Shown here in pieces: positions 43,603 through 54,385 of a stretch of 64,000 nt of DNA. The DNA comes from an uncultured Dehalococcoidia bacterium (GTDB lineage: Bacteria; Chloroflexota; Dehalococcoidia; Lucifugimonadales; UBA3495): contig CATMOE010000010.1 of assembly GCA_950072105.1 (NCBI GenBank), positions 1 through 64,000 of the forward strand. Direction: 5' to 3'. Below the pieces are notes generated by a model. It was not told the origin of the DNA, ran no database searches, and worked only from the letters and a program-made list of their open reading frames with translations. Numbering within the stretch: the stretch's first letter is position 1; each line of letters starts with the position of its first letter. Position numbers and translations under genes: made by a program.

Positions 43603-45468
43603 ATGTACGTAATCGGTACCGCGGGCCACGTGGACCACGGCAAGTCCACCTTGGTCAAAGCCCTGACCAACATAGACCCCGACCGGCTCAAAGAGGAAAA
43701 AGAGCGGGAGATGACCATTGACCTGGGCTTTGCCTGGCTGACCTTGCCCAGCGGACGGGAAATCTCCATCGTCGATGTGCCCGGACACGAGCGGTTCATC
43801 AAGAACATGCTGGCCGGCGTCGGCGGAGTTGACCTAGCCATGCTGATCGTCGCGGCCGACGAAAGCGTCATGCCCCAGACCCGGGAACACCTGGCTATCC
43901 TCGATATCCTCCAGATCCGCAAAGGGATAGTCGTCATCACCAAGACGGACACGGTTGACGAGGAACTGGTGGAGTTGGTCAAGGCCGAAGTGGAAGATTT
44001 CCTGGAAGGGACGTCCTTCCAGGGATGCCCCACGGTGGGCGTTTCCGCCTACACCGGCGACGGCCTTGACGAGCTCAAGTCCGTCCTAGATCAGGTGCTA
44101 GATAACACAGAGTCTCGGCGGGACCTGGGACGGCCCAGGCTGCCCGTGGACCGTAGTTTTACCATCTCTGGGTTCGGGACCGTGGTCACCGGAACGCTTA
44201 TCGACGGTGCTCTTACCGTGGGCCAGGAGGTGGAGCTGGCCAATTCGGGCCGCCACGCCCGGATCCGCGGTCTCCAAAGCCACCAATCCAAAGTGGACCA
44301 AGCCCAACCCGGCGTTCGTTTAGCGGTAAATCTATCGGGCCTGTCCCGCAACGACGTGCCGCGGGGCGAAGTGCTTACTTCCGCCGGTTGGCTGCGCCGG
44401 ACCAATCGATTGGACGCCAGGGTCAGGATGGTCAAAGGCGCGCCCCACTCCCTTCGTCACAACGAGGGCGTCACATTCCATCTATTTACCAGCGAGACCA
44501 CCGCTCGCGTCAGGCTTCTGGACGCCGACCGCTTGGCCGCTGGGGAAGACGGCTGGGTCCAGATACTCCTCACCGAACCCCTGCCCATGGTCAAGGGCGA
44601 CTTCTTCGTTCTGCGCTCGTCCGAAGACACACTGGGCGGCGGACAAGTGGTGGACCCCAACCCACGCCGCAGGCATCGCCGCTTCGTCGCTGAAGTCGTG
44701 GACCGGTTGATGACGCTGGACCAGGGTTCCGGCGAAGACGTTCTCCTTAGTGTGGCCGACCAGTGGGGCCCCTGCGACACTTCGGTTCTGTCCCAGCGCT
44801 CCAATCTTCCCGTTTCCGAAGTTCTAGAGCGCATCGAAGCGCTGGAGTCTCAGGGCGACGTGGTAGTCCTGGGCGAATTGGGAACCGACAGCGGCGCCGT
44901 CGTTTACTCCACTCAAGGATGGAGCGCCATGACCGGCAAGCTTTTCCAGGCATTGCGCGCGTACCACGACCAATATCCTCTGCGCCGGGGGGCTCCCTCC
45001 CAAGAGATCCGCAGCCGGTTGGGTCTCTCTCAGCCCATTTTCCTTAGGGCGCAAGCCCGGTTGACTGACCAAGAGTACTTAGTAGAAGAGGGGACGCATC
45101 TACGCCTTCCCGACCATCAAGTTGCCATGACTCCGGAGATGGAGGAAAAGGTTTCGGCATACATCAAAGCGTTGGAGCAAGACCCCTACTCTCCGCCCAG
45201 CGACCGGCCTTTGGACCCCGAGTTGCTGGGCGTTCTGGCGGAAGAGGGCAAGGTTGTACGGGTGAACGATACGATAGTGTTCGCCGCTTCTGCTTACCAA
45301 GAAATGACCGATCGCATCACCGAACACCTGAAGTCCAACGGCAGCATTACGGTGGCCGAAGCCAGGACCATGTTCGACACCAGCCGCAAGTACATTCTTC
45401 CCCTTTTAGAGTATTTGGATCAACAGCGCGTTACTCGCCGGGTTGGCGACGAACGGGTGCTGCGGTAA
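43603..45468 (+). CDS. selB: Selenocysteine-specific elongation factor
   Basis: [28 protein letters not shown]-terminal winged helices with [13 protein letters not shown]. Confidence 0.97.
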
Positions 45469-50252: not shown

Positions 50253-51353
50253 TCAGTCTACCAACAAGGGCAATTGTTCGTCGGGCGGACCGCTGGTGTT
50301 CGCAGCGTCCAAGTCCAATGGATAATATACTCTCGAACGGGTTTTGCCTTCCAGCCTAAATACACCCACATTCACCATCTCGTTCAGATCCCGTGAGGCC
50401 GTAGCCGGGGAAACGCCGGTGATTTCCATGTAATCCGACCGGGTCATCTGCCCGGTCTGGAGTGCGAAGACGTAGGCGTCTACGTGGCGCTGGGGCCAAC
50501 CGCTGGCGGCCCAAGTGTCACGAACTAGCTGCATCATCCGGTGCCATCCCGTCGTCCTTGCCACTAGATCGTCGGAAGCAGTCTTCAGTACCATGATGGA
50601 GAACTCCAGCCAGGGCGTGGCATCATACCCCACGGAGAACTCTTGCCCCAATGACCTACCGATGGCAGAAAAGTAATCGTCTTTGAGGTTCAAGAAAACC
50701 GACTCGGTGGAGATCAACTTCCTGAACCCGTAGGGCGACCGCTGCAGCAGCAGGGTTTCCAGCCCTCGAGCCGTCCTTCCGTTTCCGTCCCAAAAGGGGT
50801 GGATGGCAACCAGATGCAGGTGGGCGATCCCAGCTTTCAGAACAGGGTGCACTCCGTCATCCTCCTTCAGCCATAGGGCGAAGGAACGCATCAACCCGGG
50901 AACGTCCCTCTGGTTCGGTGTTCGGAAATCGCCGACGGAGTTAGGTCCCTTCCGGTACACACCCGGTGTGAGCATTTCCGAGGCAGTCGATATGAAATAT
51001 CGGTTGAGCTGCCGCATCACAAGTTCGTCTACCGGAATATCTCCTTGATCGCTGATGAAGTCGATGAAGTCGTAGGCCTGAATAGCGTTGATGTTGGCCT
51101 GCTCATCCTCGGTAAATTTGCCCGTGAACCCCCCGCCGGCCAGATTCCTTACGGCTGTTTCGTCAAGGGTAGCTCCCTCGATCCTGGTCGTACCGGAGGA
51201 CCGTCGAACTTGGACATCCCGATGAAACCAGGCTTCGTGCTTGGGCATCAACAGCATATTCTCGATCAACCATTGGTTCCGTTCGATTCCATCCAGGCAA
51301 ACCTCGATATTGGGTGTAATGGTATAATTCGGCTGGAAGATACTATCATTCAT
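50253..51353 (-). CDS. Fic family protein with C-terminal HTH
   Basis: Canonical HPFWDGNGRTAR; TASRDLNEMV HTH; start MNDSIF. Confidence 0.93.
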   Translation of the reverse strand: MNDSIFQPNYTITPNIEVCLDGIERNQWLIENMLLMPKHEAWFHRDVQVRRSSGTTRIEGATLDETAVRNLAGGGFTGKFTEDEQANINAIQAYDFIDFISDQGDIPVDELVMRQLNRYFISTASEMLTPGVYRKGPNSVGDFRTPNQRDVPGLMRSFALWLKEDDGVHPVLKAGIAHLHLVAIHPFWDGNGRTARGLETLLLQRSPYGFRKLISTESVFLNLKDDYFSAIGRSLGQEFSVGYDATPWLEFSIMVLKTASDDLVARTTGWHRMMQLVRDTWAASGWPQRHVDAYVFALQTGQMTRSDYMEITGVSPATASRDLNEMVNVGVFRLEGKTRSRVYYPLDLDAANTSGPPDEQLPLLVD

Positions 51354-51408
51354 GGCATAGCAACCTAAGTAATACTCTCTGTTTGATAGATATGATAGTA
51401 TCATTATA
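51338..51408 (-). promoter_or_regulatory. fic promoter with two ATGATA-N-TATCAT operator-like sites
   Basis: Perfect palindrome 51392-51404 overlaps a minus-strand TATAAT; near-copy at 51338-51349. Confidence 0.6.
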
Positions 51409-51480: not shown

Positions 51481-51510
51481 TTGACAGTTGTTGACGTTCT
51501 CAGGTAGACT
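51481..51510 (+). promoter_or_regulatory. Sigma70 promoter for the leader peptide / sulfite reductase operon
   Basis: TTGACA(51481)-18 nt-TAGACT(51505); ATG begins 8 nt after the -10 box. Confidence 0.75.
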
Positions 51511-51518
51511 TCATTCCA

Positions 51519-51581
51519 ATGAGTCTCGTATCGATTAACTGCTGCATCTGTACCTGTCCCCCCACAGAGGGGGCAGGCTAG
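51519..51581 (+). CDS. Cys-rich leader peptide MSLVSINCCICTCPPTEGAG
   Basis: Four Cys in six codons; probably leaderless; lies inside attenuator hairpins upstream of sulfite reductase. Confidence 0.8.
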   Translation: MSLVSINCCICTCPPTEGAG

Positions 51582-51618
51582 TCGTTCGTCCAACGACATC
51601 GTCTTAATCGACACCTGC

Positions 51619-51655
51619 GCCCACCAAGCACGCCGTTTGGTGGGTTTTTTATTTT
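51619..51655 (+). terminator. Intrinsic terminator within the 5' leader (attenuator)
   Basis: gcccaccaagc-acgcc-gtttggtgggt followed by tttttatttt, about 20 nt before the start codon. Confidence 0.88.
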
Positions 51656-51676
51656 GCCAAATCGTAGGAGGCCACG

Positions 51677-53551
51677 TTGACAAGTCCGACCGGAGGAACC
51701 CAGGTAATAAACCAGGAAAAGATTCACCAAGAGAGCATGGCGCTGGCCCCGTCTGCTACGGGGATCATCCCCTTCATGGACGAAGAGATCGTCCGCCTGG
51801 AAGAGGAGTCCCAAAAGTTCCAGAACGGTGAACTGGAAAACGCCGAATTCACCCCTTTCCGGCTACGCCAGGGAGTGTATGGCCAGCGCCAAGCCGACGT
51901 TCAGATGATACGAGTCAAACTGCCCGGTGGGATCATCACCGCCGACGGTTTGCAAATGTTTGGGAAGATCACCGAACGGTATGCGCCTCTGCAAAAAGGT
52001 CACATCACCACACGGGAGAACATCCAGATCCACCACATTCCCTTGGACGAGTGCCCAGAAGTTTTGCGTTTGCTGGCAGAGGTGGGGTTGAGCACCAGAG
52101 AAGCGTGCGGCAACACCGTCAGAAACGTGATCAGCTCGCCTGGCGCGGGGATATGCCCCGACGAAGTTTTCGACCCGACACCCCACCTGACAGCCTACGT
52201 GCGGTTCGGCATTCGCCATCCCATCACGCAGAACTTCCCTCGCAAGTTCAAGACGGCCTTCACCGGATGCGACTCCCATGACACCGTGGCCGCCGCCATC
52301 CAGGACCTGACCTTCGTCTCTCAGATCAGAGAGACTGACGGCGTTACCCAACGGGGGTTCAGAATATTCGTGGGCGGCGGCACATCCATCATGCCCCGGC
52401 TAGCCAAACCTTTGTACGACTTCCTGCCTGAGGACGACTACTTGCGGCTGAGTTTGGCCATCTGGACGGTCTTCAACAACGCCCAGATGTTGCGCAAGAA
52501 CCGTATGATGGCCCGGCTCAAGGTTCTCATCGACCGGATCGGGCTGGATGATTTTCGCGCGCAAGTTGAGGAAGAACTGGAGAAGATAGGCCCCATAGAC
52601 CCCAAGCCTTTGATGGAAGCCGAAGAGATCCATAGAGAAACCGCGCCGGCTGTGGAGCATCTCTCCTTCCCGGCCCTCAAACTCAACGGATCCTCTAACA
52701 ACGGTCACCACGGAGACGATGAGTTCGATCACTGGACGGAAACAAACGTTTCCGCTCAGAAGCAAGAAGGCTATTACCTGGTCTACGTCAAAATGACCCG
52801 TGGCGACATCACCGCAGCCCAGTTCCACGGTCTGGCAGACATTGTCCGCCGCTACACCGGCGGCCGCGCCCGAACCAACCAGGAGCAGAACCTGGCCCTC
52901 CGCTGGGTCCCTGGCCAGTCATTGAAAGAAGTATGGCAAGCATTGAAAGCCATTGGTTTGGCCGATGCCGACGTCCACACCATCGCTGACGTCGTTTCCT
53001 GCCCCGGAACCGACAGCTGCAAGCTGGGCATCACCTCGTCGATGGGCCTGTCCAAGGCCGTGACGGATGATATGGCGGGCTGGAACGGTTTGATGGAGGA
53101 CGAAGGGGTCCGTAAGATCCGCATCAAGATAAGCGGCTGCCCCAACGGATGCGGGCTGCACCACATCGCCAACATAGGCTTCCACGGCGCGGCCGTTAAA
53201 GGCCCCGACGGCGATCAGATCCCGGCCTACGAGCTGTTCCTAGGCGGCAACTACGGCGATAACCGAGTGGAGGACTCCAGCATCGGCACGCGGATTCCCA
53301 AGGTGAAAGTCCCCGCCAAGGCCGTTCCGGGCGTCATCAAACAGATCACCACCTACTACAAAGAGAACCGCCAGAACCAGGAGAGCTTCAACAAGTTCCT
53401 GGAAAGGGTCGGTATCGCCCAACTAACCGCCGTCGCCGCCCAAGCCCAGAGTATCACCGAGTCCACCGAAGCGGGTTCCGACCTTTACTTCGATTGGGAG
53501 CGGACCAACATATACAAGCTGGAACGCGGTGAAGGTGAGTGCATGGTCTAG
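51677..53551 (+). CDS. Ferredoxin-dependent siroheme sulfite/nitrite reductase (sulfite favoured)
   Basis: RLRQGVYGQRQ, TTRENIQ, ACGNTVRN, PRKFK, CPGTDSC and SGCPNGC ligands; AGGAGG RBS, TTG start. Confidence 0.9.
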   Translation: MTSPTGGTQVINQEKIHQESMALAPSATGIIPFMDEEIVRLEEESQKFQNGELENAEFTPFRLRQGVYGQRQADVQMIRVKLPGGIITADGLQMFGKITERYAPLQKGHITTRENIQIHHIPLDECPEVLRLLAEVGLSTREACGNTVRNVISSPGAGICPDEVFDPTPHLTAYVRFGIRHPITQNFPRKFKTAFTGCDSHDTVAAAIQDLTFVSQIRETDGVTQRGFRIFVGGGTSIMPRLAKPLYDFLPEDDYLRLSLAIWTVFNNAQMLRKNRMMARLKVLIDRIGLDDFRAQVEEELEKIGPIDPKPLMEAEEIHRETAPAVEHLSFPALKLNGSSNNGHHGDDEFDHWTETNVSAQKQEGYYLVYVKMTRGDITAAQFHGLADIVRRYTGGRARTNQEQNLALRWVPGQSLKEVWQALKAIGLADADVHTIADVVSCPGTDSCKLGITSSMGLSKAVTDDMAGWNGLMEDEGVRKIRIKISGCPNGCGLHHIANIGFHGAAVKGPDGDQIPAYELFLGGNYGDNRVEDSSIGTRIPKVKVPAKAVPGVIKQITTYYKENRQNQESFNKFLERVGIAQLTAVAAQAQSITESTEAGSDLYFDWERTNIYKLERGEGECMV

Positions 53552-53560
53552 GGTACGGGA

Positions 53561-54385
53561 GTGGCAGCCTCGCTAAGCGGCAAAGTCGTCGCCTTTTTGG
53601 AATCCCGCATGCAATCGGAGATGGCGGGGCTGATTGAACGCCATGGAGGCACACCCTACCCTGCTCCGGTCCTTCAGGAGGTCTATCTGAAGGACAGCCC
53701 TGAAGTGCGGCGATTGATTCAGGATATCTGCGCCGAACAGGTCGATATAGTCGTCCTGCTCACCGGCGTGGGCACCCAAGCCCTCGTCGAGACCGCCGCG
53801 TCCATGGGCCTGGAGCAAGATTTTCTCCGGAGCCTGAACACCCGGACCATCATCGCCCGCAGCCCCAAGCCCGCCAGGGTGCTGCGCCGGCACAAGATTC
53901 ACATCGACGTCATGCCGCCGGAACCCTACACCTCACAGGACTTGATCCAGGCCATACAGGATATGGACTTGTCCGGAAAAGAAGTGGCGGTGCAGGCATA
54001 CGGCGGGCCCAACAGCTTCCTCAAACGCAGTTTGCAAGAAAGCGGCGCTAATGTTCGAGAAGTCACGCTGTATACCTGGGGGCTTCCCGAGGATACGGCG
54101 CCGGTGGTGCGGCTGATCGACGATCTGGCCCTGGGCGCGATCGATGCCATGGCATTCACCAGCCAACCCCAGGTTGAAAACCTGCTGACCGTCGCCGCTC
54201 AGATGGGAAGGGACGAATCCTTGAGGAAAAGTCTTGACCAACCGTCGCTGGCGATCGCTTCCATAGGACCGGTTTGCAGCCGGAAGCTGAGGGAGAAGCA
54301 CATCAAGATCGACGTGGAACCGGAGCACGTTCACATGGGCAACCTGATAGTCGCCCTAGCCGAACACTTGGGTCCGGACGTTTAA
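53561..54385 (+). CDS. hemD: Uroporphyrinogen-III synthase
   Basis: LLTGVG, ARSPKP, AFTSQPQV, ASIGPVCS motifs. Confidence 0.85.
   Translation: MAASLSGKVVAFLESRMQSEMAGLIERHGGTPYPAPVLQEVYLKDSPEVRRLIQDICAEQVDIVVLLTGVGTQALVETAASMGLEQDFLRSLNTRTIIARSPKPARVLRRHKIHIDVMPPEPYTSQDLIQAIQDMDLSGKEVAVQAYGGPNSFLKRSLQESGANVREVTLYTWGLPEDTAPVVRLIDDLALGAIDAMAFTSQPQVENLLTVAAQMGRDESLRKSLDQPSLAIASIGPVCSRKLREKHIKIDVEPEHVHMGNLIVALAEHLGPDV

What the first reader, a model, noticed from the sequence alone, without database searches (positions are those of the whole stretch)
51481..51677. Leaderless Cys-rich leader peptide with a complete attenuator upstream of sulfite reductase-hemD
Seen: promoter TTGACA-18-TAGACT, then 8 nt later an ATG with no RBS opening MSLVSINCCICTCPPTEGAG* (Cys codons at 51540-51557). 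Segment 1 cctgtcccc (51553-51561) pairs with segment 2 gggggcagg (51569-51577). Segment 2 can instead pair with segment 3 cctgcgccc (51614-51622), which overlaps the left arm of an 11-bp U-tailed terminator (51619-51655). An extra hairpin gtcgtt/aacgac (51581-51597) shortens the 2:3 loop, and tcgattaa (51531) can pair with ttaatcga (51604). Known: this is trp/his-style attenuator logic, and poly-Cys leaderless sORF attenuators are described in mycobacteria. Inference: ribosome stalling under Cys starvation frees segment 2, causes antitermination and induces sulfur assimilation. I know of no such attenuator described for this kind of organism. It also argues that the reductase acts on sulfite rather than nitrite.
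Basis: partly seen in the sequence, partly recalled or inferred. Interest (0 to 1): 0.92.

Follow-up and report, generated by a model that had tools for sequence, protein, structure and literature searches.

The report
Cysteine-sensing attenuator before sulfite reductase
A tiny cysteine-rich reading frame and a switchable transcription stop signal sit in front of the sulfite reductase gene of this marine SAR202-type bacterium and most of its relatives, very probably turning sulfur assimilation on when cysteine runs short; many relatives use a version with a single cysteine codon behind a conserved short peptide.

Summary
Observation confirmed. Promoter, 20-codon leader (four Cys codons), 1:2, 2:3 and terminator lie where stated. 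The design recurs before sulfite reductase in 97 of 98 distinct upstream regions of relatives (SAR202-type Dehalococcoidia), with frame kept, terminator and antiterminator covarying, and no Shine-Dalgarno before the leader. A modelled ribosome on Cys11/Cys13 flips the RNA to 2:3; on Cys8 or the stop it does not. The switch must be kinetic, since 2:3 blocks only the lowest 3-4 terminator pairs. A second copy precedes moeZ-like/cysteine synthase genes in this genome. Best reading: a classical ribosome-mediated transcription attenuator sensing Cys-tRNA (0.85), a new variant of a known kind. Mycobacterial poly-Cys leaders act on translation; a Deinococcus cysS leader was only predicted. The scan noted this element before in seven other genomes. 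New here: in 46 of 401 genomes of the order the leader is a conserved xRxEDDLFHLC peptide with usually one Cys codon, heading sir, PAPS reductase, moeZ, TauE, rhodanese and peroxiredoxin genes, which hints that the nascent peptide helps the stall.

The parts
51481..51510 (+). sigma-70-type promoter, TTGACA-18-TAGACT
   Evidence: the same boxes in 95 of 98 distinct upstream regions of sir relatives
51519..51581 (+). near-leaderless leader ORF, 20 codons, Cys at codons 8, 9, 11, 13; stop just behind segment 2
   Evidence: Cys at the two anchor codons in 94 and 89 of 95 relatives; 98 of 103 start codons near the -10 are in the Cys frame
51553..51561 (+). segment 1 (overlaps codons T12-C13-P14-P15); 5' arm of the 1:2 hairpin
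   Evidence: 73% of cells paired but no covariation beyond shuffles
51569..51577 (+). segment 2; pairs with segment 1 or segment 3
51581..51597 (+). spacer hairpin, 6 bp; sequence not conserved, no energy gain for 2:3
51614..51622 (+). segment 3; 3' arm of the antiterminator, overlapping the lowest 4 nt of the terminator's left arm
51619..51655 (+). intrinsic terminator, 11-bp stem 51619-51645 plus U tail
   Evidence: 95% of cells paired, 61 two-sided changes against 24 in shuffles
51666..51671 (+). Shine-Dalgarno AGGAGG of sir
   Evidence: SD-like word before sir in 95 of 95, before the leader in 10 of 95
51677..53551 (+). siroheme/4Fe-4S sulfite reductase (NirA/SirA-like), PRKFK
53561..54385 (+). 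uroporphyrinogen-III synthase (hemD-like), siroheme precursor supply
   Evidence: below the curated cut-offs; beside sir in 103 of 110 loci

Best explanation
A ribosome-mediated transcription attenuator that reads Cys-tRNA supply. RNA polymerase starts at or 1-3 nt before the AUG and a ribosome loads without a Shine-Dalgarno. With enough Cys-tRNA it runs to the stop codon, where it covers segment 2 (or, once released, 1:2 forms); segment 3 stays free, the terminator closes and transcription ends near 51650. When Cys-tRNA is short the ribosome waits at Cys11 or Cys13, covers segment 1 and leaves segment 2 free; 2:3 forms before the terminator's right arm has left the polymerase, holds the lowest three C's of the stem, and sir-hemD is transcribed. 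Sibling leaders put moeZ-like/cysteine synthase and, in relatives, other sulfur genes under the same signal. Shown: the sequence anatomy, its conservation, frame, covariation and target genes. Modelled: the position-dependent switch. Inferred: start site, translation, coupling, termination and the response to cysteine.
For: Element before sir in 95 of 98 distinct upstream regions by script and 2 more by eye. Cys in 352 of 1790 leader codons against 80 and 13 in the other frames; leader length varies by whole codons; both Cys codons used, but TGT dominates the two anchor positions (82 of 94, 83 of 89) in a genome where long ORFs use TGC 2887 to TGT 831. Stop codon lies 6-13 codons after the first anchor Cys, always on or just behind segment 2. 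2:3: 84% of cells paired, 33 two-sided changes against 13.5 in shuffles, best of 7 registers; 3:4 likewise. Window model: P(2:3) 0.94-0.99 with the A site on Cys11 or Cys13, 0.00 with no ribosome or at the stop; across 86 modelled relatives segment 3 is captured in 67-68 with the ribosome on the last two anchor codons, 12 at the stop, 24 with none. Second copy before ThiF/MoeZ-like and cysteine synthase genes in this genome and in 22 of 30 relatives by script. Leaders of the same build head PAPS reductase, TauE, rhodanese plus sulfur transporter and peroxiredoxin genes. Contigs of 2 of 4 marine RNA runs bridge the terminator into sir (RNA-library contigs, not proof of transcription).
Against: On the finished transcript the terminator base closes with P 0.97 even with the ribosome on Cys13, so the model rests on timing that was not measured. 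1:2 shows no covariation beyond shuffles (9 cells against 8.0), and a G..Y|G pause motif behind it is not enriched (21 of 67 against 17.7). A cruder metric gave a clear Cys-over-stop gain in only 43 of 82 sir leaders (reverse in 2), 8 of 21 moeZ leaders (reverse in 4) and 8 of 18 DDLFHLC leaders (reverse in 3), and called no terminator in 35 others. The genome's own moeZ copy forms 2:3 poorly (P 0.16-0.33). Covariation counts come from related sequences, and some two-sided changes reflect a register shift in one clade. Whether ribosomes follow RNA polymerase closely in this phylum is unknown to me.
Confidence: 0.85

Rival explanations
1. The nascent peptide is part of the sensor: it slows or arrests the ribosome at the Cys codon (alone or with a ligand such as a sulfur metabolite, a metal or an oxidant), and the same RNA switch reports it. 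Most likely for the xRxEDDLFHLC leaders of relatives; for the window's leader it would act through CxC-P-P.
For: 12 sir leaders found by synteny carry the motif, scattered over at least 4 places of the Sir tree, with pN/pS 0.07-0.11 against 0.46-0.71 in multi-Cys leaders at like Sir distance. All 6 single-Cys sir leaders of the family have it; the other 84 average 4.0 Cys and never have fewer than 2. The back-translated motif occurs in 46 of 401 genomes of the order, 0 control hits, directly behind a promoter in 31 of 33 loci, with free synonymous change and R or K two codons before the searched stretch in 32 of 32.
Against: The window's own leader and most of its family lack the motif; P-P is lost in several clades and is explained by the C-rich segment 1. 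The pN/pS contrast is partly circular, since four of the nine codons define the group. Two single-Cys leaders lack the motif (L151, L125). The targets are sulfur genes, not metal genes.
Confidence: 0.1
2. Translational rather than transcriptional control, as in mycobacterial poly-Cys leaders: the leader region hides the sir Shine-Dalgarno until a ribosome stalls.
For: In the naked read-through RNA the first codons of the leader pair with the sir Shine-Dalgarno. One clade of relatives (L247-L251) has no clear U-tailed terminator.
Against: That pairing uses codons 2-3, not the Cys codons, and is already lost in the nearest relative L002. The covarying U-tailed hairpin ends 11 nt before the SD and leaves it free.
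Confidence: 0.03
3. A fixed, leaky terminator behind a small Cys-rich peptide gene or non-coding RNA, with no ribosome-controlled switch.
For: At equilibrium the terminator forms in every ribosome state.
Against: Does not explain covariation of 2:3, the fixed distance from Cys codons to segment 1, the free N-terminal sequence, or the sulfur-only targets. No Rfam family matches.
Confidence: 0.02

Closest known systems
Classical leader-peptide transcription attenuators (E. coli trpL, Salmonella hisL; M. tuberculosis ilvB1 leader, PMC13236596, passages seen)
   Same: Short leader ORF with codons of the end product, 1:2 / 2:3 / 3:4 helices, U-tailed intrinsic terminator, biosynthetic targets.
   Different: Senses cysteine; starts with no or almost no 5' leader; alternating C-x-C codons; 2:3 takes only the base of the terminator stem; occurs in SAR202-type Dehalococcoidia and heads several operons.
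Mycobacterial polycysteine leaderless sORFs (Ms5788A; Canestrari et al., bioRxiv 10.1101/834739, first sixth and passages seen; predicted in PMC1262725, passages seen)
   Same: Leaderless Cys-rich sORF, ribosome stalling on Cys codons, several sulfur operons under one signal.
   Different: There the output is Shine-Dalgarno occlusion and no terminator was found; here a covarying intrinsic terminator and antiterminator; no run of up to eight Cys.
Deinococcus deserti cysS leader Deide_16409 (PMC4007540, passages and Table S9 seen)
   Same: Leaderless 10-codon leader with two Cys, start site mapped at the AUG, predicted to act in transcription attenuation.
   Different: Target is cysteinyl-tRNA synthetase; helices and response were not shown in the passages I saw; the cysS of this genome lies inside an operon with no such leader.
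Ligand-sensing arrest leaders (TnaC, SpeFL, CruR/CutF; recalled, the last prompted by finding e1-5221567)
   Same: A conserved nascent peptide upstream of a regulated operon, as in the xRxEDDLFHLC sub-type.
   Different: No RAPP motif; no sequence comparison made; output here is an intrinsic-terminator switch with a cognate amino-acid codon at the stall site.

Membership tests
classical leader-peptide transcription attenuator | short leader ORF enriched in codons of the pathway's amino acid | tested here: met
classical leader-peptide transcription attenuator | intrinsic terminator before the first gene | tested here: met
classical leader-peptide transcription attenuator | antiterminator 2:3 that excludes the terminator | tested here: met
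   covaries; overlaps only the lowest 3-4 pairs and wins only before the right arm is fully out
classical leader-peptide transcription attenuator | 1:2 hairpin overlapping the end of the leader | tested here: met
   -17.5 kcal/mol, P 1.0 in naked RNA; no covariation support
classical leader-peptide transcription attenuator | stall at control codons frees segment 2, stop position covers it | tested here: met
   folding model with a masked footprint only
classical leader-peptide transcription attenuator | RNA polymerase pause at 1:2 that lets the ribosome catch up | tested here: inconclusive
   pause motif 21 of 67 against 17.7 expected
classical leader-peptide transcription attenuator | read-through responds to charged-tRNA supply through coupled translation | not testable with these tools
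   needs reporter, Term-seq or Ribo-seq
mycobacterial polycysteine leaderless sORF attenuator | transcript begins at the start codon | tested here: inconclusive
   -10 to start 6-10 nt (8 in 51 of 95), no SD; contigs cannot give a start
mycobacterial polycysteine leaderless sORF attenuator | Cys tract pairs with and hides the downstream Shine-Dalgarno; no terminator | tested here: not met
T-box or riboswitch | match to an Rfam model | tested here: not met
   two chance hits, E 1.7 and 2.5
assimilatory sulfite reductase (against nitrite reductase) | Lys, not Asn, two residues after the first Lys of PRK in the active-site loop (meaning recalled) | tested here: met
   PRKxK in 106 of 106; PDB 1zj8 has PRKYK, tobacco nitrite reductase PRKWN; below every NCBIfam cut-off
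assimilatory sulfite reductase (against nitrite reductase) | reduces sulfite to sulfide | not testable with these tools
   needs enzyme assay
CruR/CutF metal-sensing arrest leaders | RAPP-type stall motif and metal-uptake targets | tested here: not met
   leaders listed; targets (definition recalled)

The most novel reading that the evidence does not exclude
SAR202-type bacteria run an order-wide cysteine regulon of near-leaderless attenuators with two interchangeable sensors on one RNA switch: several Cys codons (as in this window), or a single Cys codon behind a conserved nascent peptide, xRxEDDLFHLC, which acts in the exit tunnel to lengthen the stall or to sense a sulfur ligand. That would be an undescribed arrest-peptide family joined to classical attenuation, repeatedly swapped for plain Cys runs.
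Probability: 0.4. Interest if true: 0.82.

Novelty: new variant of a known kind. Interest (0 to 1): 0.62.

Why it matters
The papers I could search show cysteine-responsive leader control only at the level of translation (mycobacteria) or as a prediction (Deinococcus cysS, actinobacterial cys leaders without terminators). A conserved, terminator-based cysteine attenuator would fill that gap, extend classical attenuation to Chloroflexota, and imply that a ribosome loaded on a near-leaderless RNA can keep pace with RNA polymerase there. It gives a regulon-based annotation of sulfur genes in abundant, mostly uncultured deep-sea bacteria (the reductase as sulfite reductase, an unnamed 446-451 aa protein and a cysteine-dioxygenase-like protein as sulfur-scavenging candidates). 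The single-Cys DDLFHLC leaders offer a short, directly testable candidate arrest peptide.

Tried and rejected
Rfam: no match. Spacer hairpin: 2:3 with it -19.5, without -14.4, its own share -6.0, so no net gain; spacers fold only slightly better than shuffles (54 of 86). Pause motif behind 1:2: not enriched. Cognate against swapped duplexes: clear for 3:4 (64 of 67), modest for 2:3 (45 of 67) and 1:2 (42 of 67), controls 26-27 of 67. Covariance model R1 is lineage-bound: 2 of 151 genomes of the class, so it says little about range; upstream regions were read directly instead. DDLFHLC pattern outside the order: 2 of 301 genomes, both one-mismatch hits not examined further. RNA contigs: no cover of the promoter in 3 of 4 runs, one low-depth contig from 51455 to 51658 ending at the U tail and carrying a change in the ATG; contigs cannot show ends, so not used. 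No leader before cysS; the sat upstream region was not reached. No PAPS reductase and no nitrate transporter over cut-off found in this 92%-complete genome; ATP sulfurylase present. The first tree run timed out; the tree shown is FastTree without bootstrap. Two papers I wanted (NirA as sulfite reductase; coupling across phyla) are not held, so those points are recalled. One supplementary file of PMC4007540 was not searchable; bioRxiv supplements are closed and could list further Cys leaders.

Full report
Observation. The region folds far better than shuffles (z -4.3) and matches no Rfam family. The next genes are a siroheme sulfite/nitrite reductase and a uroporphyrinogen-III synthase, both below the curated NCBIfam cut-offs. 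Named relatives of the reductase are Dehalococcoidia, several labelled SAR202.

Conservation. I took 110 loci of the closest reductases (30, 80), 98 with distinct upstream DNA. A script found promoter, start codon 6-10 nt after the -10 and a Cys-containing short ORF in 95; two more show it by eye but hold an N in the promoter; one (L108) has none within 3 kb. The N-terminal leader sequence is free, its length varies by whole codons, and it ends in C-x-C-P-P-x: Cys at the two anchor codons in 94 and 89 of 95, Cys in 352 of 1790 codons against 80 and 13 in the other frames. Of 103 ATG/GTG codons 4-14 nt behind the -10, 98 are in the Cys frame. An SD-like word precedes the leader in 10 of 95 and sir in 95 of 95. 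The anchors prefer TGT (82 of 94, 83 of 89) although long ORFs of this genome use TGC 3.5 times more often and the only tRNA-Cys reads GCA; TGT also weakens 1:2 to a U.G pair, so this may tune the stall or the helix balance (inference). In 55 of 95 the stop codon lies in the loop of 1:2; in the window it has become GAG and the frame runs four codons on, ending just behind segment 2. Either way a terminating ribosome covers segment 2.

Structure. On 67 non-redundant leaders (10 of 95 dropped because the script found no tail, 2 as too long, the rest as over 90% alike) the terminator is strongly supported (95% of cells paired, 61 two-sided changes against 24) and so is 2:3 (84%, 33 against 13.5, best of seven registers); one clade changes a G-C of 2:3 to U-A at the cost of a 1:2 mismatch, another shifts register so that segment 2 copies the terminator's right arm. 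1:2 is stable but shows no covariation beyond shuffles, as expected where one arm also encodes C-P-P. These sequences are related, so the shuffle counts are not probabilities.

Switch model. With a footprint from 12 nt before to 15 nt after the P-site base, 2:3 forms in the window with P 0.94-0.99 when the A site holds Cys11 or Cys13, 0.63-0.80 at Cys9, 0.06-0.52 at Cys8 and 0.00 with no ribosome or at the stop. Across 86 of 95 leaders that the script could parse, segment 3 is captured in 67-68 with the ribosome on the anchors, 35 on the first Cys, 24 with none and 12 at the stop, with a sharp drop two codons past the last Cys. Against this: once the right arm is wholly out the terminator base closes with P 0.97 even in the stalled state; 2:3 wins only while the last 2-4 nt of the right arm are hidden. 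The upper seven pairs of the terminator can form beside 2:3. The switch therefore has to work by keeping the lowest pairs from closing while that RNA is still in the polymerase, which fits what I recall of intrinsic termination but is inferred. A cruder metric was noisier (43 of 82 in the expected direction, 2 reverse), and no pause motif stands out behind 1:2.

Targets. The genome holds exactly two matches to a covariance model of the element. The second (G000:C59:13091, MTPSGNQITHNCTCPQT) lies behind an Rrf2 regulator gene and before a ThiF/MoeZ-like gene and a cysteine synthase; 22 of 30 relatives have such a leader there by script, a few more by eye. In the model 10 of 17 of these form 2:3 on stalling and none at the stop, but this genome's own copy does so poorly (0.16-0.33). 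The reductase has PRKxK in 106 of 106 relatives, like M. tuberculosis NirA in PDB 1zj8 and unlike tobacco nitrite reductase PRKWN; that this marks sulfite use is recalled. No PAPS reductase was found in this 92%-complete genome, ATP sulfurylase was, so the sulfite may come from organosulfur breakdown (inference). Range: of 17 loci from other families of the order 11 have the leader by script, as do all 10 examined loci of one family outside the order; most other lineages of the class show none in 1.5-4 kb upstream (23 of 65 in all, one of them spurious). Contigs of two of four marine RNA runs bridge the terminator into sir.

A second sensor design. Twelve sir leaders read M-R-x-E-D-D-L-F-H-L-C. 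They sit in at least four places of the reductase tree, including deep branches and another family, keep 81-90% amino-acid identity in the nine codons before the Cys while synonymous sites are saturated (pN/pS 0.07-0.11 against 0.46-0.71 in other leaders; partly circular), and include all 6 single-Cys sir leaders of the family. The back-translated motif occurs in 46 of 401 genomes of the order (23 of 24 in one family, 5 of 5 in another, up to four copies), with no control hit and none in the window's genome, and in 2 of 301 genomes across the phylum. In 31 of 33 loci it starts right behind a promoter and is followed by the same G-rich segment 2 and, in most, a U-tailed hairpin. Its targets are sir, PAPS reductase, ThiF/MoeZ, TauE, rhodanese with a sulfur transporter, peroxiredoxin, a cysteine-dioxygenase-like protein and unnamed proteins; one locus has two such leaders in tandem. 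Classical leaders conserve only their control codons, so a conserved nine-residue stretch at a fixed distance from one Cys codon suggests a nascent-chain effect. This is inference; the window's leader lacks the motif.

Literature. Canestrari et al. (10.1101/834739; first sixth and passages) show that mycobacterial poly-Cys leaderless sORFs act by SD occlusion and state that no uORF attenuation for cysteine had been described. PMC1262725 (passages) predicts Cys leaders in Actinobacteria with no terminators. PMC4007540 (passages, Table S9) lists a leaderless two-Cys leader before Deinococcus cysS as a putative transcription attenuator. PMC13236596 (passages) describes the ilvB1 attenuator and calls the cysteine cases translational. 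PMC2965389 (passages) has no Chloroflexi or cysteine case. Searches that found no description of this element: SAR202 + attenuator, 0 papers; sulfite reductase + attenuator + cys codons, 0; Chloroflexi + attenuation + leader peptide + cysteine + terminator, 1 unrelated listing; arrest peptide + cysteine + uORF + sulfur + stalling, only Canestrari; searches added nothing closer. Subscription journals are not covered. The scan itself reported this element in seven other genomes; the DDLFHLC motif is in no earlier finding.

Verdict. Real and well supported as a cysteine-codon transcription attenuator: it works like trpL/hisL and meets every structural criterion I could test, with near-leaderless initiation and cysteine as the new features. 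It is not a member of the mycobacterial translational class. New variant of a known kind, interest 0.62; the single-Cys conserved-peptide sub-type is the part that could be new in kind (probability 0.4).

Noticed in passing
G000:C59:13091-13226 (L131:1592-1730): Second copy of the attenuator, between an Rrf2 (CymR/IscR-like) gene and ThiF/MoeZ-like plus cysteine synthase genes; its antiterminator is weak in the folding model.
   Followed up: yes
L222-L254, L272-L283: Order-wide single-Cys leaders xRxEDDLFHLC before sulfur genes; tandem pair in L277 before TauE and PAPS reductase genes.
   Followed up: partly
L236-L240, L272: In one family (5 of 5 genomes) the DDLFHLC leader heads a cysteine-dioxygenase-like gene and an enoyl-CoA hydratase; odd for a starvation-on switch unless the enzyme scavenges sulfur from another thiol.
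   Followed up: partly
L233, L235, L273, L280, L281: Unnamed 446-451 aa protein with no Pfam match under a DDLFHLC leader in small genomes; candidate sulfur-compound binding or uptake protein.
   Followed up: no
L247-L251: DDLF leaders before sir that lack a clear U-tailed terminator; may have moved to another output such as translational control.
   Followed up: no
L197, L204-L216 upstream of sir: Dehalococcoidia lineages without the leader show imperfect palindromes with TTGAC/GTCAA halves at the sir promoter, by eye like Rrf2-family operators (label recalled), suggesting a swap between repressor and attenuator control.
   Followed up: no
window 50253-51404 (-): Fic-domain gene diverging from the attenuator promoter, with its own promoter-like site at 51423-51395; seen near sir in only 10 of 110 loci, where an FAD oxidoreductase is the commoner neighbour (42 of 110).
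   Followed up: partly
L118, L120: In two other families the Cys leader starts further from the -10 (17 nt in L120), so not all copies are leaderless.
   Followed up: no
window 43603-45468 (+): selB gene; the genome also has a tRNA-Sec.
   Followed up: no
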